Shown: in pieces, positions 2-49,561 of the stretch
Numbering within the stretch: the first letter of the stretch is position 1
Layout: every line of letters begins with the position of its first letter
NCBI GenBank assembly: GCA_031835245.2
Contig: JAVKOQ020000116.1
Location: 62,001-126,000, forward strand
Origin: Balamuthia mandrillaris
Taxonomy: Eukaryota
DNA length: 64,000 nt
Direction: 5' to 3'
The notes under the pieces: model-generated
Told to the model about the DNA's origin: nothing
Seen by the model: the letters and a program-made list of their open reading frames with translations, nothing else
Databases searched by the model: none
Made by a program: the position numbers and the translations under genes

Positions 2-1465
2 GCCAAACTGTGGGAAGGGCTTTGCCCTTACGTCAAGGTATTCTGCAGCAGCGCTGGCAATTGTTTGCGCAGCGCTGACCGCCTCTGCATCGGCTCCGAG
101 GAGCCTAATGTAACCGCCCTGAAGCGTGCCACCGAGGCAATGGCCAACCTCATGCGAGAGATGGATCCCAAGGCAACCCCTGCTGGACCAGGAGCACCTC
201 TGATGGCTGCAGCTGCCCCGCCGCCACCGATGGGAGGAGCGCCACCACCACCGATGGGAGCACCCCCACCACCCCCCAGCGGTGGAGGTGCTCCTCCCCC
301 TCCTCCAGGGGCTGGTCCTCCACCACCCCCACCAACAGGCGGAGCTCCTCTGAAGATCGCTGGTGGTTTGGCTGCACTAAAACGTCCCTCCTCTGGCAGC
401 GCTCCACCCAAGCCGGCCCCTGCTGCAGCACCGCCTTCCTTAGGAAACCTGCTGGCAGGATTGGGCAACGTGCAGCTGAAGAAGACCACTCCCAACACCA
501 ACAATACCAACAACAACAATGGCACCTCCACCAGCGACTCTGGCCCTGGATTCTCGGCGGTGTTGGCTGCCTTGAGCTCCGTCAAGCTGAAGAAAGTCTC
601 CACAGGACCACCCCCGGAGGAAAAGAAGAACCAACCCGAGGAAAAAGGAGTGCTTTCCTTCCCCAAGTTGAGAGCCACCAGAGCAGAACATGACCAACAA
701 GCAGACAGCTCCTCCTCCCCGTCCACTTCCTCCTCTGCCCGTGAGTCAGGCAGCGGCAACAGCTTTGGTGTTCACTTGTTGAAGAGGCATGGCACAGGGT
801 CGGGTTCTCTGCAGGCATCTCACCTACGGCGGCGAGCGACCGCGCCTGACAAAGGCGAGGTGCAGGGTGGTTCGCCTCCTCCCATGAACGAGGTCGAACA
901 GAAGTTGCAGGAGAGGCTGAGGAGAATCACTCTGGCCGAAAAGACGCAGTCCGCGTCCAAATTGGGCGAGGAGGAAGAAGCGAAGAAGCAGGAAGAAGAG
1001 ATAGTCAAGACAGAAGAAGAAACAAGTAAACAGGAAGAGGAAGAAAGCACCGCCAACAAAGCCGAAGAACCCAGCAATGATGAAGGTAAAGGCAAAGAAG
1101 ACGGAGAAGGAGAAGAAGTAAATAAAGAAAGCGACGACGAAAGTAGCAGCGAAGAAGAGGAAGAGGGAGAAGGAGAAAACCAGCACTCTTCCTCAACTGT
1201 TGAGAGCAGCAGTAGCAGCGAGGAGGAGGAAGAGAGAGAAGACGAAAAGGAAGAGAGAGAAGACGAGAATGAGGAACAGAAGGAGAAAGAGCCGGAACAA
1301 GAAGCCAAGGCTCAAGAGGAGGATGACAGCGAAAACAGTAGCAGCAGCAGCGAATCCGAAGAAGAGGAGGAGGAGGAGGAGGAGGAGGAAGAGGAGGATA
1401 GCCAAGCCTCAACCAAAGACGAAGAGGAAGAAAGCTCCTCCTCTTCGTCTTCCGACAGCGACTGA
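2..1465 (+). CDS. 3' part of a proline-rich, tandem WH2-motif actin-binding protein with a long acidic tail (5' end outside window)
   Basis: Frame open from position 2. Poly-Pro runs followed by WH2-like segments LGNLLAGLGNVQLKKT and FSAVLAALSSVKLKKV (helix + LKK). E/S/D-rich C-terminus, TGA at 1463-1465. Confidence 0.7.
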   Translation, partial: AKLWEGLCPYVKVFCSSAGNCLRSADRLCIGSEEPNVTALKRATEAMANLMREMDPKATPAGPGAPLMAAAAPPPPMGGAPPPPMGAPPPPPSGGGAPPPPPGAGPPPPPPTGGAPLKIAGGLAALKRPSSGSAPPKPAPAAAPPSLGNLLAGLGNVQLKKTTPNTNNTNNNNGTSTSDSGPGFSAVLAALSSVKLKKVSTGPPPEEKKNQPEEKGVLSFPKLRATRAEHDQQADSSSSPSTSSSARESGSGNSFGVHLLKRHGTGSGSLQASHLRRRATAPDKGEVQGGSPPPMNEVEQKLQERLRRITLAEKTQSASKLGEEEEAKKQEEEIVKTEEETSKQEEEESTANKAEEPSNDEGKGKEDGEGEEVNKESDDESSSEEEEEGEGENQHSSSTVESSSSSEEEEEREDEKEEREDENEEQKEKEPEQEAKAQEEDDSENSSSSSESEEEEEEEEEEEEEDSQASTKDEEEESSSSSSSDSD

Positions 1466-1680: not shown

Positions 1681-4600
1681 ATGGATAGCCTGTACACCAA
1701 ACCGCCCAGAGAAGTGGCGCCTTGTTCCCTCTTTCTGGAAGAGGGGGATCAGCAAATTATGGACGACGAGCGGTTGGAAAAAGACCCAGTGTCGTGGGTG
1801 AACCGCAAGGTGGCGGTCTTGCCTCGGTCGGAAGTGGAGGTGTTGGTCCATCGCCAGTTCCCTATGCATCGCTGGTATGGTGAAACCGAATGGGGTTTCG
1901 TTTGCGCTTTTCAAGGCAGAGCAGTGGGTAAGAAACGTGTTCGATCGAAGAAGCCCGAAGCGCTACCCACCGCCGAGCCGCTACCTGGAACCACCGTCTA
2001 CGTTATGGCTTTCAACGCTGCTGCCATCCAGCTGGACAAATACCTTTCTACCCCTGAAGGATCACGTAAGGCTATTGGCATAACCGGGCGCCGCCTTCCG
2101 CTCTTGGCGAAACCGCTGTATGCCCACCGCACGTACTATTGGGAAAAGCTATTTCCTCCGCTTGATGAACACGATTCATCAAACCTCTTTTCTTCTTCTT
2201 CTTCTTCTTCTTCTTCTTCTTCTTCAAGCAAACAACATGAAGCAGCAGTCCTTTTGCTTTTAGAAGACGACGTACCAGCACTTCGCCGATCTCCTGTTTC
2301 CAACGACCGGCTAAAGGACACACAAGCAAACCTGTGTCCCAGCAAAACCCTGTTAGTCTGCGGCAAGTCGGCATCGTACAAGTTATGGGGACCTCCAATG
2401 CTCGCTTTGTGGCACGGATATCTGCTTCGCCACGTTTTCTTTCAGGAACATCTTCTCAGCCAGTTACGCCTCAATGACTGTATTCGTGGCTTTCGAGACT
2501 TGGATGCCCTCGTTCTGCACAGTCGCCTTTGGAATAGTGTGGAGAAGACGAATAGGACAGGTGGCACCAAGAAGGAAGGAAAGAAGAAGATGGTTCTGGA
2601 AGATGAAGAAGACGGCCTCTCATTGTTGGAGCGTCAACTTGTTATTCCATTCTTTGGTGGTCGTCGTGATGGCAAACAACGAGAGAAGGAGATAGCTAAG
2701 GAGAAGGAAAAGGAGAATGACGTGACCAGCTTAACATCCCCCTCGAGTTCTGGGCAAATCCCGTGGTATAGAGTGCCTCGTCTGAAAGAAACTGGATCCT
2801 CTTCACTTGATTCCATCATCCGTGACAACAGGAAGCTGGTGGTGCTGTGCGATCCGACCGGAAAGAGAACATTGGGCGAGAGAGATGATTTTCTGGCGCA
2901 ACAGCAGCCAAACTGGCTGAAAGAGTGGCAACAGAAGGAAATGGCTGCTTGCACTCCCTCCACTAAGCAACAAAAACGTAACGCCTTTGCTTTGGTTCAT
3001 CACGATGCCGAAGCTGGCATCTTCCATTTCGCTGGGGCACTTACATCACCACCATCAACAGCGAATGCGGAACAACTGAATCTGGACGATGACGCGGCTG
3101 GTGCAGAAGATGAAGAGGGGAATGTGACGGTAGACGAAGAAAAACAGAAGGAAGAGGAGGAACCTCAATTGGAGATTTGCTTCTCTTTTGACACTACGGG
3201 TTCCATGTTTTGCTACCTCGCTCAAGTTCGCAAAAGCCTTAAGTTCTTGGTGCAATCTCTGCTGCTGGACCTCCCTTCTCTTCGCATTGCCATCATCGCT
3301 CATGGAGACTATTGCGATCGCGAACAGTACGTGCTGAAGCGATTGGACTTCTCTAACGATCCCGACCGCCTTTGCGACTTTGTTCAAGGTGTAGGCTCTA
3401 CTGGCGGAGGGGATTCAGCAGAATGTTACGAGCTTGCTTTGAAAGATGCCCGTACTCTGAGCTGGACTCCATCGGCAATGAAAGCCCTGGTGGTTATAGG
3501 AGATGACATTCCACACGAGAAAGGCAACGAGTCCGGAGGAAAAGAGGTGGAGTTGGACTGGCGTGAAGAGCTTAACCAATTGACGGCTCTGGGCATCCAT
3601 GTCTACGGTGTGCAATGTGGCCAACACCGCTACGCGGATTCGTTTTATGCAGCTTTGGGGAAGGAGAGTCAAGGAGCTCATCTACGCCTGGCACAAGTTA
3701 TGGACATCGAACGCCTGATCAAAGGATTGTGCTACCTTCAAGCAACGGACTACCTTGCAAAGAAGTCCAGCGGTGGAGCTTCCTCAGCGGGACTGATGGA
3801 GGGAGAAGACGCCATGCAGGTCAGTGATGGTGCAGTGGGCGAACGGCCACGCAGAGGAGAACCTCTTTCTCAGGATTCCTTTCTGGAAACCATCCACAAA
3901 GCCATTCACGACACACAACAGACGCACGTTACGATTGAGGGACAAAAATACGAGTTATCCACTAGTGAGAAGGCAGGATGTCGTTTTGTTCAGGTGGCAG
4001 AGGTGACGTACATCGAGCAAAACAAGAACAAGACCGATTCCGTTTATGCCGAGCTGGCCAACGCTGGTCATCGCATAACTTGGATGATTGGCAGAGGCAA
4101 GCATTGGGGCCTCATCGTGGATGATCGAATCCTTCGCCCTTCTCCTGCTGCTGTACAAGCCAACAAACGGCAAGAGCAAACGATGACAAAAGAAAGACAG
4201 CAAAAGGAAGAGGAACTACGACAGCAATGCTACGTTAGATCGAAGCAACAGTTTCTTAACAATTGGAAGCAAATGACACACGGCGTGTTGGACGACGTTT
4301 TGGAACCGGGCAAGGTATGCGTGGCAGGCGGTTCTGTGCTTCGCTGCATGATGCCACTCCATAGGCGATGGCCCCTGTGGAACCGTGCCAAGGGCAAGTC
4401 GCAGAGCGATATCGATGTATTCATCTGCAGCACCGACTCCCAGGAAGCTGCCCTCAAAATGGAGCAAGTATTGAACAAGGTTACGACTCGCCTTAATGAA
4501 CAGGGTGTGGCCTACGATTGGAAGTGTAGAAGCCATACCGTCACGCTACTTCCACGAAGCAATGAGACACAACAATTCTCATCCCAGAAAGAGACAGCGG

Positions 4601-5102
4601 AGAAGATGAACAAGGAATGGACGTGCAGTGTGTGCACCTTCCGCCACGAGCAGAAACGAAAGAGATGCGAGATGTGCGACACGCCCTATTCTCCTGTGAA
4701 AGGCTTGAAGGTGATTGATGTTCGAACCAACTCCGATGTTTCTTCCAGCTCTGCTATCGCTACGAAACCTGTGGCCATTCCGCCCATCCAAATCGTGTTG
4801 TACTTGATGAACAGTGTGACGGAGCTGCTGTCTGGATTTGACTTAGATTGCTGTGCTGTGGCCTACGACGGTTGCCATGTCTGGACTCATTATCGTGCCC
4901 TCATCGCTTCGGCCATGAGCATTAATGTTGTGGATCCTTTCAGATTGAGCCCAAGCTACGCACGACGGTTGTTGAAGTATGCAAAGCGAGGCTTCGCAAT
5001 TGTGGTTCCAGGTCTTACCCCAACCACCGCTGTTGAAGCGAAGAAGTATGCTCGAAAGCTGCGTCGACAGGAAAAGGCTACTGAGGACGGCACCAGTAGC
5101 TC

Positions 5103-5134
<32 letters not shown>

Positions 5135-8100
5135 CTTCTTCTTCCGCTTCGTTCGTAAGCAGAGAGAGTTCCATTCAGTCAGCCAACGGTTTACTTTGGC
5201 TGTTGGCGAAAGAGGGAAGCATCGATGGAGAAGAGTTGGAAGAATATGAGGTAGAGAGTGAACAATTTGAAGAAGATTCGGATCGTAGCGACGATGAGTA
5301 TGAAGAGAAGGCCAGTGATGAGGAAGAGGATAGCGATGATGAGTACAGCGAACAAAGGGACGAGAAAACAGGATTGTTGTTGAAGAAAAGTGAAGTACGC
5401 AGACGAGAACAGTCTGGCGTAAAGCGAAGCAAGAAAAGAAGAAAAGAATCATCCAGTGAGGAGGAGGATGGTGATGATGAGTACAGTGAACAGCGGGACG
5501 AGAAAACAGGCCTGTTGTTGAAGAAAAGCGAAGTGAAACGAAGAGCAAGAATGAAGGGTGGCAAACACAAAAAATCGAAGAAGGCTTCTGCCTTCAGTGA
5601 AGAGGAAGAGGAGGACAGTGACGACGAGTATAGCGAACAACGGGACGAGAAAACAGGCCTGTTGTTGAAGAAAAGCGAAGTGAAGCGTAGAGCAAGAAAA
5701 CGGGATGTTAAACGCAGAAAATTGAAGGAGGCTTCCTCATCGAGCGAGAGTGAAGGCGGTGATGACGAATACGGAGAAGAACGTGACCCTCGGACGGGTT
5801 TGCTTATGAAGAAAAAAGAGGCTCGCAAGATGAGAAGAAGAAAAGAAAGAGCACATCGCATGGAACTCCTTCATCGCTCATCTGGAGCAGCTCCCTCTTC
5901 TCCCACCACATCATCTTCAGAAGAGGACGCGATGGCAGAAGAGGAAAGTGCAAGCAAAGAAAAAGCACAGAAAGGGAAAAGCAAAGTGTCGATTGTGAAA
6001 CACTCGCACGCTACTCCGTTGAAGGTTATCACGGACGGAGCAACTTGGCATCATCGCCGGTCTCGCTTCGAACTGTCCGCCACTCATTTGCCTGATTGGT
6101 ATCATCTGGCATCTAATGGGTCGGTGATGCCTCTGGTGCGTGGGTTCTATCGATGGCTGTCGAACTGTGATACCTTCGCCATTCCCCATTTGGAGAGGAA
6201 ACTTGTGGAGACCACTGGGCGAGATCATGCGATGCTGGTGAATGGCCTACTGAGCACGTCATCTCGCTTCTTTCTTCCTCATCACTTTCATCAACACTTC
6301 ACGAAAGTGGCGGAGCGGCTGATGAACGGATGTGTGTTACATGTTGGCCCCAACGATGAGCTCTACCGACTGCGAGAAGTGGAGTTTTATTTCTTCTCCT
6401 CTAGGCACGAGGACATCTTCACTCACAAGAATCCCATGCAACGCTTGGCTGGTCGTTGGTACTTCCATCAACAACCGGATGGCAAGTATCGAGATGGCAA
6501 CTTCAAGGGCTTGGACATTACTTTTGGCTCAATCTTGAAGGATAAGATCAAGGAAGAAGGAAGCGTTTATCAACAGACCAAAACCAAGAAACAAGAAGAA
6601 GAGGAAGAAGAACAAGAACAGGAAGAAGAAAAGGGGAGAGAGGTTTACGGCGGGGTGCTCATTCGAGCAGTGGAACGCGTACGGGATGGAGCGTTCTTCG
6701 AAGGACCCTGCGTGGTGGTCAATCAACTGCTGGAAGAGACGGGCTGCGCCAGTATCGACGCTTTAGTCGCTCATCCCCGCTTTGACTTTGCTGTGGGCAA
6801 CACTGGGTCTTGGCTCTTCGCTCAACGTATGCTTTACCTCTCTTATAATTTTCATGAAAATGAAGAAAAGGAGGAAAGGCAAAAGAACGAGCCGGAGAAG
6901 CAGAAGGAGAAGGGCAAAGCAAACGAAAGTGAGATTCAACCACCACAACGACAAGGCCTTTTCAAAAGGAGAAAGATCTTCTGTTGCCCTCGTGTGGGTC
7001 TCAGCATGAGAGCTATGAATGGCAGCCAACCCACCGCCGAACAATTCTACCATTCGTTCTATCGCTTTATGGCAGGAGAGGAAGACAAGAACGTCAGCCA
7101 ATGGCAAAAAGGACGCGTCTACTCCGCGTTGGCCTTGCTGTCCCCAAACACGCTAGCAGAACAACCTTGCACACCTGCTCACGTGGCGGAGAAGACAGGC
7201 CTAACTCTGGTAGAAGTGGATCAGATCAAACATTGGATGGAGGAAGGACAACAACAAGCTCGCTTGCCTGGAAAAACTCTGGAAGCCATCCGCGAGTACT
7301 TTGCTGGTCGTAACTTTAGTCAGGACCTCCGCACCATTTCTCGCTTCTTTGGATGGTGTCAAGCCCGCGAATTCGATGCAGACGAGTGGTGGGTCTGCCC
7401 CGAAGGTTGGAAAGGAACTGCCATCCAAGGCGACATAGAAGGTAAAGATGAGGAGGACGACTATTTCGATGACATGCTTGCATTCATAATACGAGAGGAA
7501 CGAGGCAACAACAAACGCATCTTCCCGGCCAACAAAGCCGATGTTCTGGCTGCCTTCAAACTGACTCCTTTCGAACAAGTCAAATGCGTGATCCTTGGAC
7601 AGGATCCCTATCACACTCCCGGCTTGGCCCATGGCCTTTGCTTCAGCATCCGCAAACGGATCCAATCGCTGGAGAAGGACCTGCCTCCCAGTCTAAAGAA
7701 CATCTTTGAGGAGCTGAAGGAAGATGTGGAGGGATTCGAGGCACCCAAAGATCACGCCAACTTGGAGAGTTGGGCCTTAAATGGCGTGCTGATGCTCAAT
7801 TGTGTGTTGACCGTGGAGGCACATAAACCCAACAGCCACCGTGAAATAGGATGGACTCGCTTCACTGATACTGTTATTCGGTATTTCTCTTTCTCTTTCC
7901 TTTCGTTGCTTCTCTCCTTTTGTTTTCTTCTTGCTCTTCCTCCTTTTCTTCTTCGTGCTTCCTTGTTCTTGTTTTTGTTCTTCTTCTTTTTCTTCTTCCT
8001 CTTCCCTCTTTGCTAACGGATAACGTTATTTTGCAGCGAGCTAAGCGAGAAGAAAGAGGGATTGGTGTTTTTGTTGTGGGGCGAAGAGGCCCAAGCCAAA

Positions 8101-12934: not shown

Positions 12935-13625
12935 TCATCCAGCACCAGCCTCATCCCCACCGCCTCGTTGTTTGTATTCTGGTTTCAGTTCCCATTTGTT
13001 CTTGTTAGGACCTTTCTTGTTGATGGTGCATAACTCTGTCAATATTTGCTTCAACCACACCTTTTTTGTTTGTTGTTTTGTGTTGCGTTGTTAGCGTTAT
13101 CTCCAACGAAAGAAAAAGAACAGAAAAGAAAATAAAACGATAAAAGAAAACGAAAAGCGAAAAAGATTACGAGAGAGGTAAAAGGAAATAGGGAATAGAA
13201 AAATGAAAAGAAATCAAATGCGAAAAGTTACTCAGAATAGTAAGGTCGAAAAGAATGAAAGTACAAACCGTTGGCTGCTTAGTAACGTGCAACAAATCCT
13301 TGAGCGTCCAATAAGGCTTCTGTTCAAAGTGCAAGAACAGCAGATTGATGAGGTCTGGTCTATCGAGGCGCGTCTTCTTGTCGGGCGCTTCGGCTTTCTT
13401 TGGCGCCTGTCGAGTAAAAGGTTTTGGCTGAGAGGCCGGCTCACTATCGTCGTAGGGCCGTAGGAACATCGTCACTTGTTCGGAGGCCTCCTGGCGGTTC
13501 TTGACAAGGGTGCGGTAGGTCTTGGTGTCGTGTGGCTCGCATATCATTCGCGCTCCTACAGTGCCTTGCATCTTGACTCTTTTCTTTTGTCGCTCTGCAA
13601 AAAATAAAAGTTTGATTGAAAAGTT

Positions 13626-13658
<33 letters not shown>

Positions 13659-13670
13659 AAGAAGAAGAAG

Positions 13671-13702
<32 letters not shown>

Positions 13703-14289
13703 GAACAAGAAGAACAAGAACAAGAAGAAGAACAACAACATAAGGCAACAACATCAACAAGAAGAAGAGGAATAACAAGAAGAGGAAGCACAAAACAAAG
13801 TGAGCTAAGAGAGAAGAGCAAATTTGAACCTTCAATAAAACAGTAAGAAGGGTTCGGCACGGATTGGATCTTTAGCGTGTGTCTATCAGGATAAGTGCCC
13901 TGCTGCAAAATTTCAGGGGCGGTGATCTGAAGCTCCGCCCCAGAGAGCTTCCTCAAGTTTTCAGCCTCCTCTGCGACCTTCCTCTTGCGCACCTCCCCCG
14001 TCTGGCTCTTGGCACTGGGGCTCATCTCACGCCCGACGGCCTCCGTGATGGCGAAGAACTCCTCTGGCATGGTTACGCGCCCCAATTCAGCGCCTGGCGG
14101 GAGGTTGTGCCAGTGCTTGGCCACAAAGACGGGCATCTTGACGAGAAAGATGGGGCGGTTCACGCTCTCGAGCTCCACTTTGGAGACGTCCTCCGATTTG
14201 GCGAGCGACTCTGGCGCTGTCGCTGCCGCCGCCGCCGCCGACGAAGCGGAGGAGGAGGAGCTGCTGTCTCCCTCTTTTTTTGTCGACAT
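12935..14289 (-). CDS. GTF2F2: General transcription factor IIF subunit 2 (RAP30), spliced
   Basis: IFLVKMPVFVAKHW N-domain; winged-helix LFLHFEQKPYWTLKDLLHVTKQP...WLKQILTELC...WELKPEYK. Confidence 0.9.
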
Positions 14290-14533
14290 AGAGGAACCTG
14301 TGCTCACCACTCTTCTCAGTGTTTGGTTTGGAAGAAATAAAAGCCGAACGTTAAAATAGTGGTGGAGTTTGAGACAAAGGAAGGCAACCAACCGTTGGAC
14401 TTGGTAGAAGCAAGCCAACAACCTGGACAACAACAAAAAAAAAACAAAACAAAAGGGGGAAGAACGGGTTTTCTTTCTTTCTTCGTCTTTATACTTTACT
14501 TTGTGGCGAAGTTTCTGCCGTGAGGGGTCATAA

Positions 14534-14690
14534 TCAGATCAAAAACTTGATCTGAATTGAAATTTCGAAATAACCAGGAAGTTTCCTCGTAATATTTGAT
14601 CGGAATTGCGATGAACTTTCATCATAAATGACGAATTACGGAATTTTTGAACGTGGGAAGGCCGTTGGCCCAATGGCAATGCAACACGTG
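14534..14690 (+). promoter_or_regulatory. Divergent GTF2F2/Hsp101 promoter with HSE-like nGAAnnTTCn dyads and an ERSE-like CCAAT-N10-CACG element
   Basis: GAAatTTC 14559-14566, GAAgtTTC 14578-14585, GAActTTC 14613-14620; CCAAT 14670-14674 + 10 nt + CACG 14685-14688; 9-bp inverted repeat TCAGATCAA/TTGATCTGA at 14534-14555. Confidence 0.5.
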
Positions 14691-14889
14691 GGCAGGCCCA
14701 CTCCACGTAGAATCAGAGGCAGATAAAACAAAGTCTTGAGCCATCCACAGGCCACTATCGACGCACAAAAACCAAACGGGGATCACATCGTGGAGGAAGA
14801 CCACACATAACAAGATACACGCACAAGTCAGCCTCTGCACTCCGCTCCCCATTCTTCCTGTTCGCTCACTTTTCTGTTCGTGAAACAGC

Positions 14890-17800
14890 ATGACTTCATT
14901 TCGAACGATCCCGGCCATCCTTTTCGTCCTCTTTTGTGCGGTCGGGTTCCTGCCCCACCGCTCCATGGTGGCGGCCCAATGGGGCGTCGACCCCAACACC
15001 TTCACGCAGAAGACGGTCGAGATGTTGAACAACGCGGTCGCCTTGGCGCAGAGCCAGGGCAACGCCCGCCTGATGCCGGTCCATCTGGCCACCGCCTTGT
15101 TTGCCGACAACGACGGCCTCGCCAGAAGAGTTTGTGAGAGGGCCGGCATCTCAGTGAAAGCCATCAAAAATGTAAACTCTCTTCTCTCTCTCTCTCTCTC
15201 TCTCTCTCCGTTGCTTCTACTGCGTATGTTTCTCATTTCGTTTCTCTCTCTCTCTCTCTCTCTCTTTTGGTGTCGGCATTCATTGTGATTACTCTCTAGT
15301 GCATTTCTTTTCTCTTTCCGTTATGTGTTTCTTTTGCTTTCTTGTCGTTCCTTCCTTCCTTCTTACCTTCTGTTCTTTCTGTCTTTTTTGGTCGACGGAA
15401 ACTCACAATGCAACAAAACAACAGGGACTGAAGGACAAGCTAAACGGATTAGCCCAACAGAGTCCTCCCCCAGAACAAATCAGCACGTCGGCCGCCATCA
15501 CCAACGTCATATCCACGGCCGACACCGCACGCCGCAACAAGGGTGACCAGTTCTTGGCGGTCGATCATCTCTTAATGGGGCTTATGGGGGACGCACACGT
15601 GGGAGAGGTCTTTAACTCGGCTGGCTTCACACGCAGCCGCTTGGAGAGCGTCATCAACGAGATTAGAGGAGGGAGAAAAGTGGAGAGCCACAGCGCAGAG
15701 GCGGCCTACGAGGCGCTGAACAAGTACGGCACTGACCTGGTGGCTCTGGCGGAGGAGGGCAAGTTGGATCCGGTCATTGGCAGAGATGACGAGATAAGGA
15801 GGGTGGTAAGAGTGTTGTCAAGGAGGACCAAGAATAATCCGGTTCTTATCGGAGAACCTGGCGTAGGCAAGACTGCCATCGTGGAAGGATTAGCACAGGT
15901 TCGGCTCCCTTATTCTTCCTTTCCATCTTTGCTTCTGGTTATAATTCATTCATCTTATCTATTGCAGAGAATCGTAAGAGGAGATGTACCAGAGAACTTG
16001 AAGTATTGCCGAGTGGTAAGCTTGGACATGGGACGACTGGTAGCTGGTGCCAAGTATCGTGGCGAATTCGAGGAACGCCTCAAAGCAGTTCTCTCCGAGG
16101 TCTCCGACTCCGCAGGCTCCGTCATCCTCTTCATAGACGAGATGCACAACGTGCTTGGGGCGGGGAAGGCCGAGGGCTCTCCTATGGATGCTGCCAACCT
16201 CCTGAAGCCTATGTTGGCAAGAGGAGAGCTGCGATGCATCGGAGCAACCACCCTCGATGAGTACAGGAAGTACGTGGAGAAGGATGCTGCCTTTGAGAGA
16301 AGATTCCAACAGGTGTTTGTTGCCGAGCCCTCAGTGGAGGATACGGTAAGCATTCTCAGAGGGTTGAAGGATAGGTACGAGTCGCATCATGGAGTTCGGA
16401 TCTCGGACAGTGCTCTTGTGGCTGCTGCTCAACTTTCAGATAGGTAAGGACCACCTGGTTTTTGTTTATGTTTTGACACATACAATGACCCAAATTTCCG
16501 TCATTATATAGGTATATCATGGGTCGTTTTCTTCCAGACAAAGCGATCGATTTGGTGGATGAAGCTTGCGCCAACACGAGAGTCGAACTAGACAGCCAGC
16601 CTGAAGTCATCGATCAGCTGGAGCGCACCATTCTTCGTTTGGAGATCGAAGCAACAGCTTTAGAGAAGGAAGTAGAGACGGAGAAGAGAGACAGCCACCA
16701 TCTAGCCGTTCGCTTGGCGACCGTTCAAAGAGAGCTGGCAGAAGCCAACGAACGACTGGATGTCATCAAAGCCAAGTATCAGCAGGAGAAATCAAAACTA
16801 GATCGTCTGGCGGAGCTGAGAAAGGAGATAGAAGACACTGAATGGGCCATCGAACAGAACGAACGAAGATACAACCTTAACAAAGCTGCCGAACTACGGT
16901 ATGAGACTCTTCCTCAGTTAGAAAAAGAGCTTGAGCTGTTGGAAGCTTCTCATAAGCACGACGGCGAAGATGAAGAAGACTCAAGGCTGTTGGTGGAAAC
17001 GGTTGGACCTCAACAGATTGCTGAGGTGGTCAGTCGTTGGACTGGTATTCCAGTCTCCAAGCTCAGCCAGAGTGAGAGGGATAGGCTACTCTCCCTCTCT
17101 CAACGGCTACGTTCCAGAGTGATCGGACAGGATGCAGCTGTGACCGCCGTCGCCAACGCCGTTCTTCGCAGCAGAGCTGGACTGAGCCCTCGCGGGAAGC
17201 CACAAGGCACTTTCCTTTTTCTCGGTCCAACAGGAGTGGGCAAAACTGCTCTGGCTAAAGCCTTGGCGGAGGAACTCTTCGAAGATGCCGGCAACATCGT
17301 TCGCATCGACATGTCAGAGTACATGGAAGCCCATTCCGTAAGCAGGATGATTGGAGCTCCTCCTGGTTACATTGGTTACGACCAAGGAGGACAGCTGACG
17401 GAGAGCGTGAGGAGGAGGCCTTACACCGTGGTACTTTTGGATGAGATAGAGAAGGCCCACCCACTTGTCTGGAACGTTCTGTTGCAGGTGTTGGATGACG
17501 GACGCATGACCGATGGACAAGGACGGACCGTTGATTTCAGCAACACGGTCATCATCATGACCTCGAATCTTGGCTCTGAAGTGCTGCTTCAAGCTTTGGA
17601 TAGCAAAGCCAACGGAGGCAGCACCGGAGAAAACGTGAAAGAGCAAGTGATGGCTATAGTGCGGAGAAACTTCAAGCCAGAGTTTCTCAACCGGTTGGAT
17701 GATATCGTGGTCTTCAACCCGCTCACCCGCGCCGATCTTTTGTCCATCGTTCGACTGCAAATGAACTCGCTGGTAAAACCTCTTGCTGAGAGGCAGATCG

Positions 17801-18105
17801 AGCTGCAAGTATCGGACCGTGCGTTGGAGTTCGTCTTGGAGAAGGCATATCAGCCCGCCTACGGCGCTCGTCCCATTCGGCGTTTCGTGGAGAACGTCAT
17901 CGGAACAAAGCTCTCCGAGATGATACTCGGCGGAGAGCTCGCCGACCGCACCGCCCTGCGCATTGACCACGAAGCCGGAACGGACTCGCTTCGGTACCTA
18001 CCTAACCCCCGTGCAGCGGACTCTGCCACACCGAACACCACCTCGAACGAGGCCACCCTTGGGGGTCCCGCGCAGTTGCGCTCCGACGCTAGCATCCTCC
18101 TTTAG
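14890..18105 (+). CDS. clpB: Hsp101/Hsp104/ClpB AAA+ disaggregase with N-terminal signal-peptide-like extension, 4 exons
   Basis: Clp N-domain [12 protein letters not shown]1 [15 protein letters not shown]; coiled-coil M-domain (AAELRY); NBD2 [30 protein letters not shown]. Confidence 0.95.
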
Positions 18106-23008: not shown

Positions 23009-26596
<3,588 letters not shown>

Positions 26597-29803: not shown

Positions 29804-31124
29804 ATGAAAGCGCAAAGGCGAAGGCGAGTCGAGCCTTTCGTCAGGGAGGCAGGCTCCTCTGCATTGCCAACTTCTACGGCAGGGCCGACCGCCGCCACAG
29901 CGTTCATCGCCGGCTGCGTTGGTCTTATTTGTGGCATCATCGCCACGACCTTTCACCACCAGACATGGTCATCTCAAGGCGCTAATGCAAAGGTCGAGAA
30001 GAGAACCGAGGATCCAGCAGAGAAAGAACAACTGGAGGAACAAAAACAACAGTTGGCCCAACAGCAGCGGGCCTTTCGAGACGCGGAAGCCTGGCGGCAG
30101 CAACTCGTGAACGAGCTCTACAAAGACGTGACGGACGATGAGTTGGACGAGGCCACGCGCTGGAAGCTACGCTCAACCTTTCTCTCCTTCGCGCTCCTGC
30201 TCGCGGGTGTCATCTCTGCCGGAGCAGGTTATTGCCTCCCTGAAGCCACGAGCCGCTCGCCTGGCAAAGGAGCTCGGCGCTGACCAGGCCTGGTCGGAGA
30301 AGAAGCAGGACGCTTTCCTCTCTTGTTACATCTACCACAGCGCCGGCATCGAGGGCAACAGCCTCAGCCTGGAGGATACCTCATTCTTTGTGGAACAGAA
30401 GAAGCTATTCGGTAGTCATGAGTACGTTCTCGGTGAGCAGAACATCATCGAAGTTCGCAACCTTTATCAAGCAATGGAGACCCTGCAACTTGTGGACCTC
30501 CTGGGTATCCTTATGACCAATGGCTCTGCCTCCTCCCTGCCATGGATGAACATCACTCCCGAGTTGCTGCTCGATAGTGTTTGGACTATCACCAGAGACA
30601 CTGGTGCACCAAGCAGGAGCCTCAGACGACACCCAGTTGCAGTGGGTGCTCAGAAAGTGGTGCTGCCAATGCCCGATGAACTCCCCATTCTCTTTACCGA
30701 GTACGTGGTCTGGATTCAAGACAGCCTCTCCGAACTTAAGCAGAAGAACAGAGCACCAACGCGCAGCATCGACATCCACGACGACCACATCGACGGCATC
30801 AGACGTGCACTTGACCTAGCCTGCGATGCTCACACTCGCTTTGTACACAGCCATCCTTTTGCTGATGGAAATGGACGTATGGCACGCTTGCTGGATGCTC
30901 TTGTCTTGCAGCGAGTGAGCTTGCCACCGCCCATGTTCTCACGACACCACCGCCAGGAGTACATGAATGCTGTCTCCGCCGCCACAATTCATGGCAACTA
31001 CGAGCCCCTGTGTCAGATGCATCTAGCGGCTGTGGTTGCATCTCTTTATGCTGTCGAGCAGCTAGTCGCTGAAGGAGACCCCTTCGCGAGTTGCAATCAC
31101 AGCCGCCAGTTGTTCGTTAATTAA
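29804..31124 (+). CDS. Membrane-anchored Fic-domain AMPylase (FICD/HYPE-like)
   Basis: N-terminal TM AFIAGCVGLICGIIATTF; autoinhibitory YHSAGIEGN; catalytic HPFADGNGRMAR. The two frames are joined by a putative intron ~30128-30227, or by a frameshift. Confidence 0.8.
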
Positions 31125-42633: not shown

Positions 42634-44074
42634 GAAGAGAGAATAAGCCGAAAAAACATGTCAGTGCCGCCTATTGCTAACACCAAGCTTCTCAACAGAG
42701 TCTTGAAGGGAGCGAGGCCAGCAGCACACTGTTATTGTGGCCACCAATTTGGATACTTTTCAGGTCAGTTGGGAGATGGGGCGACCATGTATCTCGGCGA
42801 GATAGTCAATCACAAGGGAGAGCGATGGGAGATCCAGTTTAAAGGGGCTGGTAAGACTCCTTACTCTCGCACTGCTGATGGTAGAAAAGTCCTTCGCTCC
42901 TCTTTGCGAGAATTCTTATGCAGTGAGGTTTGGATCTTCTCCCTCTCTCTTCTCCCTAGCCCATCTCTTCTCACTCTTTTCTCTCCTCTTATTTTTGTTT
43001 GTAGATATAAGCTAACACCTACAATGAAACAGGCAATCCATCACTTGGGCATCCCAACAACAAGAGCTGGCACCTGTGTCACCTCGTCCTCTTGGGTCAA
43101 ACGGGACATTTTTTATAATGGCAACCCGAAAGACGAGCGCTGCACAATCATCCTTCGGATAGCCCCCACTTTTCTGCGCTTCGGCAGCTTTGAGATCTTC
43201 AAGGGCACCGACGAGTATACTGGAAGAACCGGACCAAGCGAAGGTAATAAGGCTATCCTGTTGCAACTCCTGCATTACACCATACGTACCTTCTACCCCG
43301 AAATATGGAGTAAGTACCACGCTCCTCCCGACCAAGACAAGGTCAACATGGAGAGAGAGCATGATGCAGATGTGGAAAATACTTTTATCAACGAGGAGAT
43401 GTATCTTGAATTCTACCAGGAGGTGGTACTGCGCACAGCTCGACTGGTAGCGGCGTGGCAGTGCGTTGGTTGGTGCCATGGAGTGCTTAATACCGACAAC
43501 ATGAGCATTTTGGGACTTACCATCGATTATGGTCCATTTGGTTTCATGGAAAGCTTTGACCCTCATTACATTTGCAATGGCTCTGATAATGAAGGCCGGT
43601 ACTCTTATGAGGTTTGTTTTCTAGTCTTGTTTTTTTTTTGTTCGTTTTGAGGGTTGTTATCCTAATGATTCTTCCATCTTCCCTTGAACAGAACCAACCA
43701 GAAATGTGTCACTGGAATTGTTTAAAACTGGCAGAGGCATTGGAAATGGTTCTTCCTCTCGCGAAGTCTAAACCCCTTCTGGAGAACACTTTTATGACTG
43801 AATTCCGTCGTGCATACCATGAAAAGATGAGACAAAAAGTATATTTTTTTCTAAGATTTATGCAGTACATGGTCACCTTTTGTAATGACTCTCTCTCTCT
43901 CCCTCTCAGCTTGGATTGTTAAACAAGGATTGGCCAGGGGATACCGAGTTGATCAAGTCCTTGCTCGACACAATGCACGAGACAGGCGCGGATTGGACCA
44001 ACACCCTCCGGTCTCTGGCTCGTATTTCTATTCCCAAGCCTTCACAAGCCACAAAATATACCCCTAAGGTTTGC

Positions 44075-47331: not shown

Positions 47332-49561
47332 TCACCGAGCTCCTTCATACTTAAACTGGCAGATGAGGATGCTGTTTCCTCAGATCCCAGCGTACTGCTG
47401 CTGCTATTCCCGAAGTGGTTGGCCTTGGAGCCTTCTGTTGCGAGCCATGGTTGTAAGCGAAATGGTGTGAGAGTAAATCTAAAGAGAGAGAGGAGTACGT
47501 TGGTCTCGGCGTGTCTTGGATAGAGTGCGCCGGCGGGTCCATTCTCGCTTTTGGGTGTGTGCCCTCAAGACGTTCCATCTCTCCTCATTCCCGTTGGCAT
47601 GAAGGAGCCCTCTAATGAGGCTTTGCCAATAGCGGAACGTCTTCTCGGAGCAACCAACAGCAAAGAAAACACAGAATCCTATGCTGCTCATGACGATAGA
47701 ATTGAACAGTGTCATGCCATAGCTTGGCTTCTCTTCTAACTCACACTCCGTCCCTGTGTAGGCGCTGCAGTATATCTGTTGAGATTGTCAGGATAATATC
47801 CTCATTTGCTAAAGCAATGAAAGCTACTTGCCTGGTCTTCAATGGAGTCCTGCACTTTCTCTTTGATGGCACTACCATAGAAGCGGTACACTATGATGGA
47901 AGCGCCCATCAACCAATAGATGCCAAGGAGAACGAGGATTCGAATGAATTGTTGCAGAGGCATGTTGCCTTGCAGGTTGAATTTATACGTGCGCTGGAGA
48001 ATGGAAGCAAATGTAAGAAGACAGAGGATTGGAGAGCGAACTTTAAACATGGAAGGGAAGAAGATACCAGGCAGATAGAAACAAGTACGATTACTAAGGA
48101 GACCGACCCTACAATCCAGGTTAAAATGACTAGTAAGGAAAGCTTAGTTGAGAATGTATTCATCAAATGAAATATAACTTCGAGGAGAGAGTGATTACAC
48201 AAAATATGAAAGCACCCATAGGTCCACCAGTCATTATCCTTGTCATAAACAAAACACCAAGGCAAGGTCGGAGAAGCAGAGATCTTGTTCGCAGCCAGAG
48301 GTATAATAGTCATTACAGTGGGAATACTCCAAAAAATCAAATGATACCTGCACCAGCGAAGCACACAACGAACAACAATTAACAGAAATTGTAGCCATAA
48401 AAAGGCGATAGTTTATACTTACAAATGTTTCAGTTTAGCCAAAGTCTCTTGTTTGATCTTCACCACAACCATCAACACTAAGTTAATGCCGACGATTGGC
48501 CACAAAGACCCGGCCCACAAGCCTCCAAATACGATCAGCATTCCTGGATGAGAGTGGAGAGGGTTAACTGTGGAATTCTTTGCTGCGCATCCTTAATCGG
48601 TTAAATAAATACCTTGTAATACACAAGCTAGCCCACCAGCATCTCCCTGACCTACAGCTTGATATTCTCCATCCTCTGAGCACAACACATTCCTCATGCC
48701 TCCAGCAAACAAACCGAGCATCATGCCCAACGTGACAGGTATAGAAGCAGCACAAAGCAGCGGAACCAGATTGGCTGGGAACTGTCTCGTATCAGGGTTG
48801 AGGGCAGCGGTCACCACGTAGAAAACAGACAGCACCAGAGAGATGCTGCTGAACACATTGATGACAATGAACATTGCGTCCCATTCTTCCTCGGTATAGA
48901 CGGGACCAGGGCAGGGATACATGCAGAGGGAGGTTGGATCCTCGGGATCCAGAGCTTCACTTTCGGAGGCATGAAACTCGGTGGGGTAGGGACAATCTGC
49001 TTGAGAGTACGCCACCTCTAGAGAACACCATATGAGCAATGCACACAGGGAAGATGGGATAGGATCAATTCTTACTTTCATCGCTGCCAATGTTACAACT
49101 GCTGTTGGGAAAAAGCGTGGTGACACAAGGAGGAATTGTTTTGCCGGAACCCTCCAAGTCCGCCCTACAAGAGTTGTGGGCAGCCACGCAGAGGGACAAG
49201 CAAGGTGAAATAGCTGTTGAAGCTAAGAGTGAGTGTCGTGAAGAAACTCAAGCAATCATTTGACAAACGCACGTTGGGAATCGTTGGAGCATGTCTTGTA
49301 GATAAAGTGGCATGCCAACTTTAATCCGGCTTGTCTACATTCTTCGGAGACCCAAACACCAAGAGCGCTGGTGTACGGATACACTTGGGCCTCTAGAGCT
49401 TCCCAACTCACGCCGGTAGGCAGATAGACTGCTTGTCCCTGACCCAGTAACAAAGGCAGACATTTTTGGTCCACTTGGTCCCACAGGGATTCTTCCAAAT
49501 ACACACATTCACCACCTGTCATCCAAAACCACAACTCAGCATTTCGAACAAAAGAAGCCGA

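What the first reader, a model, noticed from the sequence alone, without database searches (positions are those of the whole stretch)
14890..18105. Hsp101/ClpB disaggregase carrying an apparent cleavable signal peptide: candidate ER/secretory Hsp100
Seen: ahead of the Clp N-domain ([10 protein letters not shown], equivalent to the start of cytosolic Hsp101) is [31 protein letters not shown], with a basic n-region, hydrophobic core and V-x-A cleavage site; it does not resemble an Arg-rich mitochondrial presequence. Both NBDs and the M-domain are intact and the C-terminus (SDASILL) has no KDEL. Known: Hsp100 disaggregases are cytosolic, mitochondrial or plastid, the ER is thought to lack one, and the notable secreted exception is Plasmodium HSP101 of the PTEX translocon. 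An in-frame Met26 could give a cytosolic isoform. Inference: a lumenal/secreted disaggregase or unfoldase, possibly dual-targeted.
Basis: partly seen in the sequence, partly recalled or inferred. Interest (0 to 1): 0.82.

Follow-up and report, generated by a model that had tools for sequence, protein, structure and literature searches.

The report
Secretory-pathway Hsp104-type disaggregase in protists
An amoeba gene encodes an intact Hsp104/ClpB-type aggregate-dissolving motor with a transcribed, conserved signal-peptide-like leader, and relatives in distant protists carry similar leaders, some with an ER-retention-like tail, so this is likely an overlooked version that works inside the endoplasmic reticulum, where such motors have hardly been described.

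Summary
Observation confirmed. The gene (four exons, 941 aa) matches Balamuthia mandrillaris records and is an intact eukaryotic Hsp101/Hsp104-type protein. Its 29-residue leader has the three parts of a signal peptide. It is in spliced RNA that starts upstream of the ATG, and it is conserved between strains while the UTR drifts.

The main result lies outside the window. The closest relative found (63% identical, an unnamed eukaryote) also has such a leader and no second Met. So do a Picozoa protein and a Nannochloropsis group, and the latter end in xxEL. These group together in three trees (84/94 in the careful one). A local origin of the Nannochloropsis group is rejected (p 0.0095), but separate origins of the two subgroups are not (p 0.28).

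Best reading: a lumenal, probably BiP-partnered disaggregase paralogue. Not shown: no SignalP run, no localisation, no KDEL in the Balamuthia protein, no cytosolic paralogue identified. Ten literature searches found no such family (apart from Plasmodium HSP101); four look-ups in the scan's earlier notes found nothing relevant.

The parts
14500..14625 (.). Four GAAnTTTC dyads (two-unit heat-shock-element-like sites; the HSE motif is recalled) in the region shared with the divergent TFIIF-beta gene
   Evidence: 5 GAAnnTTC/TTCnnGAA sites in 14331-14890 against 0.27 expected from the window-wide rate, 0 of 5000 shuffles; function not tested
14780..14889 (+). 5' UTR (approximate lower bound of the transcribed part)
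   Evidence: RNA reads and spliced contigs run 27-105 nt upstream of 14882 in other strains
14890..14976 (+). Predicted cleavable signal peptide, residues 1-29 (n-region R5, 17-residue uncharged core, V-A-A cleavage site)
   Evidence: codons 8-29 invariant and free of indels in the four runs laid
14965..14967 (+). In-frame Met26, possible leaky-scanning start
   Evidence: -3 base T; no equivalent Met in other leaders
14890..15171 (+). Exon 1 (leader and first part of the Clp N-domain)
   Evidence: 15 reads and two contigs join 15172 to exon 2
15425..15898 (+). Exon 2 (rest of N-domain, start of NBD1 with Walker A)
15968..16443 (+). Exon 3 (NBD1 pore loop, Walker B, Arg finger)
16512..18105 (+). 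Exon 4 (M-domain with Y541 = E. coli ClpB 503, NBD2, C-terminal tail without KDEL)

Best explanation
The gene encodes a complete Hsp101/Hsp104-type two-ring AAA+ motor behind a transcribed, conserved leader that is predicted to be a cleavable signal peptide, so the protein likely enters the ER and likely works there as a hexameric disaggregase switched on by the ER Hsp70 BiP. Shown: gene structure, transcription of the leader, intact catalytic motifs, constraint on the leader, and leaders (some with xxEL tails) on related proteins of other protists. Inferred: SRP/Sec61 import and cleavage after A29; hexamer assembly in the lumen; binding of BiP to M-domain motif 2; threading of aggregated secretory proteins through the pore for refolding, probably under heat stress; retention without KDEL (for example through BiP or client binding). 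It most likely belongs to an old paralogue that arose from the cytosolic Hsp101 line and was kept patchily in protists.
For: Leader anatomy and chance controls. Spliced transcripts include the ATG and upstream UTR; a 2952-nt spliced contig begins 87 nt before 14882. In run X5 the leader has 1 silent change in 87 nt against 10 changes in the 100 nt before it (Fisher p 0.011); in X17/X11/X9 it has two n-region changes while the UTR no longer aligns. The closest relative (L001, 62.7%, next other-species hit 56.6%) has a classic leader and no Met between 1 and 60. Among 29 extended proteins, 1 of 9 with a hydrophobic extension keeps a Met at the usual start against 17 of 20 with a non-hydrophobic one. 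15 of 278 stored proteins, all of the Nannochloropsis group, combine this subfamily with a C-terminal xxEL. Leader-bearing full-length proteins group together with the leaders excluded. Y541 lines up with E. coli ClpB residue 503; Hsp70 binds motif 2 (PMC4428496, passages).
Against: No SignalP/TargetP run and no localisation data. The Balamuthia and L001 proteins have no KDEL-type tail. A single origin is not secured: AU p 0.28 for placing Balamuthia+L001 with the cytosolic proteins, bootstrap 84, and fragments P0054 and P0106 did not join the group. The trees hold no identified amoebozoan cytosolic Hsp101, Hsp78, plastid ClpB or Plasmodium HSP101. Shared unique residues number 6, against 0-5 for control pairs, and two of the three in motif 2 also occur in Thermus ClpB. 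A separate cytosolic paralogue in Balamuthia was not identified. RNA depth is low (about 7 at the ATG in X17).
Confidence: 0.6

Rival explanations
1. The protein enters the ER but travels on (phagolysosome, contractile vacuole, encystation vesicles or surface) and works as an unfoldase or translocase motor, in the way Plasmodium HSP101 serves PTEX.
For: No KDEL-type tail in either Balamuthia record or in L001. Plasmodium HSP101 is a precedent that sits in both ER and vacuole (PMC8896661, abstract).
Against: It needs ATP, which is best established for the ER lumen (own knowledge). Its Nannochloropsis-group relatives end in xxEL. It keeps a normal M-domain and scores far better against cytosolic Hsp101/Hsp104 (1026 and 954 bits) than against HSP101 of 6e10 (663 bits). 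No pore-like partner gene was seen among the 42 ORFs scanned.
Confidence: 0.17
2. The gene is dual-use or mainly cytosolic: ribosomes skip Met1 and start at Met26, giving an ordinary cytosolic Hsp101.
For: Met26 is in frame, seven residues before the N-domain, and kept in all strains laid. One public model omits the leader (P0001, starts at Met45). No separate cytosolic paralogue was identified. HSE-like dyads suggest cytosolic heat-shock control.
Against: Met1 has -3 A, Met26 -3 T; transcripts include Met1 and no pile of read starts lies downstream; the leader is constrained; no internal Met in 8 of 8 other leaders. 27 reads in run X17 come from a different Hsp100 transcript, which may be the cytosolic paralogue but was not identified.
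Confidence: 0.12
3. The leader is an uncleaved anchor that holds the motor on the cytosolic face of the ER, where it helps extract aggregation-prone ERAD substrates.
For: Yeast cytosolic Hsp104 aids ERAD (PMC6781448, passage). Charges on the two sides of the Balamuthia core are about equal (R5; H23, R24).
Against: Clear small-residue cleavage sites; basic n-regions in the relatives (net +2 to +6, Picozoa 0) predict a lumenal body; xxEL tails only make sense in the lumen; some cores are only 12-15 residues.
Confidence: 0.07
4. The leader is a mitochondrial or other organellar presequence.
For: No acidic residues, and R24 lies 2-3 residues before M26/V27 (sequence).
Against: A 17-residue uncharged, strongly hydrophobic core with only 2 basic residues; the protein falls in the eukaryotic cytosolic-type clade (100/100), whereas Hsp78 is a separate line without N-domain (recalled).
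Confidence: 0.04

Closest known systems
Cytosolic Hsp101/Hsp104 (PDB 9ip0 'ClpB1', 6d00 Calcarisporiella Hsp104, yeast Hsp104 5vjh)
   Same: Domain order, all catalytic motifs, long M-domain, best scores among solved structures; same eukaryotic clade.
   Different: N-terminal signal-peptide-like leader in place of the start Met; Asn at 527 where 23 of 23 cytosolic rows have Ala; no acidic C-terminal tail.
Plasmodium HSP101/ClpB2 of PTEX
   Same: A ClpB-type protein that passes through the secretory pathway and is partly in the ER (PMC8896661 abstract; PMC10433460 passages).
   Different: Much lower score (663 versus 1026 bits); it docks on EXP2-PTEX150 to export proteins; no orthologue identified even in Toxoplasma (PMC7355975 passage). 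Orthology was not tested on a tree.
Complex-plastid ClpB (Plasmodium ClpB1; P0157 type)
   Same: Starts with a signal peptide.
   Different: Those carry a transit peptide after it (ClpB1 residues 24-152, PMC10433460 passage); here the N-domain follows within 3 residues, and Balamuthia has no plastid (own knowledge).
BiP-based ER disaggregation (PMC9076838) and torsins
   Same: Would do the same job in the same compartment, probably with BiP.
   Different: In mammals the activity is ascribed to BiP without Hsp100; torsins are single-ring lumenal AAA+ proteins (recalled).

Membership tests
ClpB/Hsp104/Hsp101 | Clp N-domain, two AAA+ domains with intact Walker A/B, pore-loop Tyr, Arg fingers, sensor 2 | tested here: met
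ClpB/Hsp104/Hsp101 | Long M-domain with the Hsp70-contact Tyr; no ClpP-docking loop | tested here: met
   Y541 = E. coli ClpB 503 by gapless match (role of Y503 recalled); no [IL]GF motif
ClpB/Hsp104/Hsp101 | Hsp70-dependent disaggregase activity as hexamer | not testable with these tools
   needs biochemistry
Cytosolic eukaryotic Hsp101 | Falls in the eukaryotic Hsp101/Hsp104 clade | tested here: met
   100/100 against four bacterial rows; no Hsp78 or plastid rows included
Cytosolic eukaryotic Hsp101 | Starts at the N-domain with no targeting peptide | tested here: not met
Sec signal peptide | Basic n-region, hydrophobic core, small residues at -3/-1 | tested here: met
   heuristic rule; SignalP not available
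Soluble ER-resident protein | C-terminal KDEL-type signal | tested here: not met
   absent in window, P0002 and L001; xxEL present only in the Nannochloropsis group
PTEX HSP101/ClpB2 | Orthology and EXP2/PTEX150 partners | tested here: inconclusive
   low score; not on a tree; no whole genome held
Proposed secretory Hsp101 paralogue | Leader-bearing proteins form one clade | tested here: inconclusive
   SH-aLRT 96 and 91, careful 84/94; AU 0.0095 against a stramenopile-local origin, 0.28 for split origins

The most novel reading that the evidence does not exclude
Early eukaryotes duplicated cytosolic Hsp101 into an ER-lumenal, BiP-coupled disaggregase that survives in amoebozoans, eustigmatophytes, Picozoa and other protists and was lost or went unnoticed in animals, fungi and plants: the missing ER member of the Hsp100 family.
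Probability: 0.4. Interest if true: 0.88.

Novelty: new variant of a known kind. Interest (0 to 1): 0.76.

Why it matters
ER disaggregation has been ascribed to BiP alone in mammals (PMC9076838), and the only secretory-pathway Hsp100 met in my searches, apart from plastid-bound ones, is the specialised Plasmodium HSP101. A natural lumenal Hsp104-type motor would show that a BiP-Hsp100 pair can exist. It would revise the chaperone inventory of early eukaryotes, give context for the origin of HSP101, and offer a ready-made tool for clearing ER aggregates. It can be tested at once in Nannochloropsis or yeast. Animals lack this family (PMC13580251 passage), which also makes it of interest in a pathogenic amoeba.

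Tried and rejected
Whole genome not held, so no paralogue census. Leader as translated pyrimidine-rich UTR or intron: rejected by strain conservation, GC3 21 of 28 like the rest of exon 1 at 54 of 65, and shuffles. P0060's hydrophobic extension: set aside because it keeps the usual Met; P0054's HSEL end: set aside as the end of a fragment; P0157: plastid-type. Clade-signature count: not above controls. N-glycosylation sequons (none in the core of the window protein or L001; 0-4 in 24 cytosolic rows): uninformative. Atlas searches gave only generic ClpB/Clp_N clusters. Viral contigs gave two weak loci, not pursued. No synteny between L001/L002 and the window beyond the gene. No listed holder run is on record as RNA; RNA evidence comes from laid runs. 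Supplements of PMC8569187 and PMC10471605 (one text file each) held no Hsp100 terms; tables not held there could bear on paralogues. Earlier scan notes: 8 unrelated hits, none. No fold or complex job was sent: neither would settle location.

Full report
Gene and organism. The ATG at 14890 opens a four-exon gene whose spliced frame is 941 aa. Residues 45-941 are identical to an NCBI Balamuthia mandrillaris model that starts at Met45 (P0001). A second NCBI record of the species (P0002, 96.6% identical) includes the leader with two n-region changes. All three introns are seen spliced in RNA: introns 2 and 3 as joints, intron 1 as 15 reads and two contigs running from 15172 into exon 2. Walker A/B, pore loops, Arg fingers and sensor 2 of both rings are intact and no ClpP-loop motif was found. 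Y541 matches E. coli ClpB position 503 without gaps.

Is the leader real? SignalP was not available, so I used a three-part rule of my own. The leader passes, with one cleavage site, after A29. The rule passes 10 of 752 ATG-started open stretches in the window (4 at this hydrophobicity, this one included), 14 of 20000 base shuffles and 263 of 20000 residue shuffles. Met1 has A at -3; Met26 has T. In runs X16 and X17, 6 reads each extend upstream of 14882. Contigs of X11 and X9 extend 105 and 87 nt, and the X9 contig is a 2952-nt spliced record. No pile of read starts was found, but depth is low. In X5 the 87-nt leader has one silent change, against 8 substitutions and 2 indels in the preceding 100 nt (Fisher p 0.011). 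In X17, X11 and X9 the UTR does not align at 80%, while the leader differs only at codons 6 and 7. The core and cleavage site are unchanged in all four runs.

Relatives. A search with residues 1-196 against 1.84 billion representatives returned 150 best hits. Among 183 stored proteins with an intact N-domain start, 29 have an extension of 10 or more residues. Of these, 9 are strongly hydrophobic (7 clusters) and only 1 of the 9 keeps a Met at the usual start, against 17 of the 20 others (counted from its list). So the hydrophobic leaders replace the start rather than precede it. One is from a Picozoa record; most are unnamed. I fetched the locus of P0202 and spliced it in a script: 902 aa, a classic leader, no Met between 1 and 60, tail ...NKKLS, 62.7% identical to the window protein, and best hit in both directions among stored proteins. 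Its organism is unknown. A profile search brought full-length proteins of a group that includes Nannochloropsis gaditana EWM26312.1 and N. salina TFJ85916.1. Those with complete N-termini have leaders, and all end in GGEL, NEEL, KEEL, DDEL or EDEL. Of 278 stored proteins, 15 of this group end in xxEL; the only others ending in EL/EF are two fragments. Calling the unnamed members eustigmatophytes is my inference from the tree.

Trees. With 51 rows (quick), all 7 leader-group rows formed one branch, SH-aLRT 96. With leaders cut off and 7 short fragments added (33 rows), five did so at 91, while P0054 and P0106 stayed unresolved. With 20 rows (fragments, three bacterial rows, P0081 and P0119 left out), the careful tree gave 84/94 for the five and 98/94 for window+L001. 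Forcing the Nannochloropsis pair with oomycete and diatom cytosolic proteins was rejected (p 0.0095). Forcing window+L001 with the leaderless eukaryotic proteins was not (p 0.28). The trees lack identified amoebozoan cytosolic Hsp101, Hsp78, plastid ClpB and Plasmodium HSP101, so one origin is favoured, not shown. Six columns are shared by the group and rare in 24 cytosolic rows, against 0-5 for 8 control pairs. Three lie in M-domain motif 2, but two of those also occur in Thermus ClpB.

Mechanism. The simplest reading is import by the signal peptide, cleavage before Gln30, and work as a hexameric disaggregase with BiP, since Hsp70 activates this family through motif 2 (PMC4428496, passages). 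The xxEL tails argue for ER residence in one subgroup. The Balamuthia protein and L001 lack them, so a later compartment stays possible. Four GAAnTTTC dyads upstream hint at heat-shock control; untested. In X17, 27 reads match up to 16297 and then continue as another Hsp100 sequence; this may be a Balamuthia paralogue or another organism.

What is known. Ten full-text searches (listings and abstract starts) showed no report of an ER Hsp104/ClpB family in free-living protists; the library lacks most subscription papers. I read passages of PMC6781448, PMC5447177, PMC10433460, PMC12732369, PMC4131146, PMC12781119, PMC9076838, PMC13580251, PMC8016102, PMC4428496 and PMC7355975, and the abstract of PMC8896661; for PMC8569187 and PMC10471605 I searched one supplement each. 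One review (PMC12781119) states in passing that the ER has analogues of Hsp100 without naming them in that passage, so 'the ER has none' is not universal wording. PMC9076838 ascribes mammalian ER disaggregation to BiP. Plasmodium HSP101 is in ER and vacuole (PMC8896661) but scores 663 bits against 1026 for 9ip0.

Verdict. Entry into the secretory pathway about 0.8; ER-lumenal BiP-coupled disaggregase 0.6; single ancient paralogue with that role 0.4. New variant of a known kind, interest 0.76.

Noticed in passing
window 13167-14290 (-): TFIIF beta subunit gene, divergent from the Hsp101 gene, with an intron joint at 13830 in RNA; it shares the short region with the HSE-like dyads.
   Followed up: partly
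window 1681-8016 (+) and 140-1465 (+): A 2111-aa uninterrupted ORF in an intron-rich genome, with only sub-threshold UDG and RanBP zinc-finger hits, preceded by a 441-aa ORF with no Pfam hit.
   Followed up: no
window 16297, run X17: 27 reads continue as a different Hsp100 coding sequence (reads as RRFQPVYVGE), not listed for X16 or X18; unidentified paralogue or other organism.
   Followed up: partly
window 15022: One public gene model (P0001) starts at Met45 and so drops the leader and the first N-domain residues; such models may hide this subfamily in databases.
   Followed up: yes
window 30138-31124 (+), 42658-43650 (+): A Fic-domain ORF and a SelO-type adenylyltransferase gene, both AMP-transferase families.
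   Followed up: no
window 48593-49081 (-), 23731-24937 (-): Frizzled/Smoothened-like membrane region; PAS plus histidine-kinase pieces.
   Followed up: no
window 32698 (+), 58232 (-), 28536 (-): Other ATG starts with signal-peptide-like N-termini.
   Followed up: no
L003 1-510: A Clp N-domain match (31%) at the end of a viral-collection contig.
   Followed up: no
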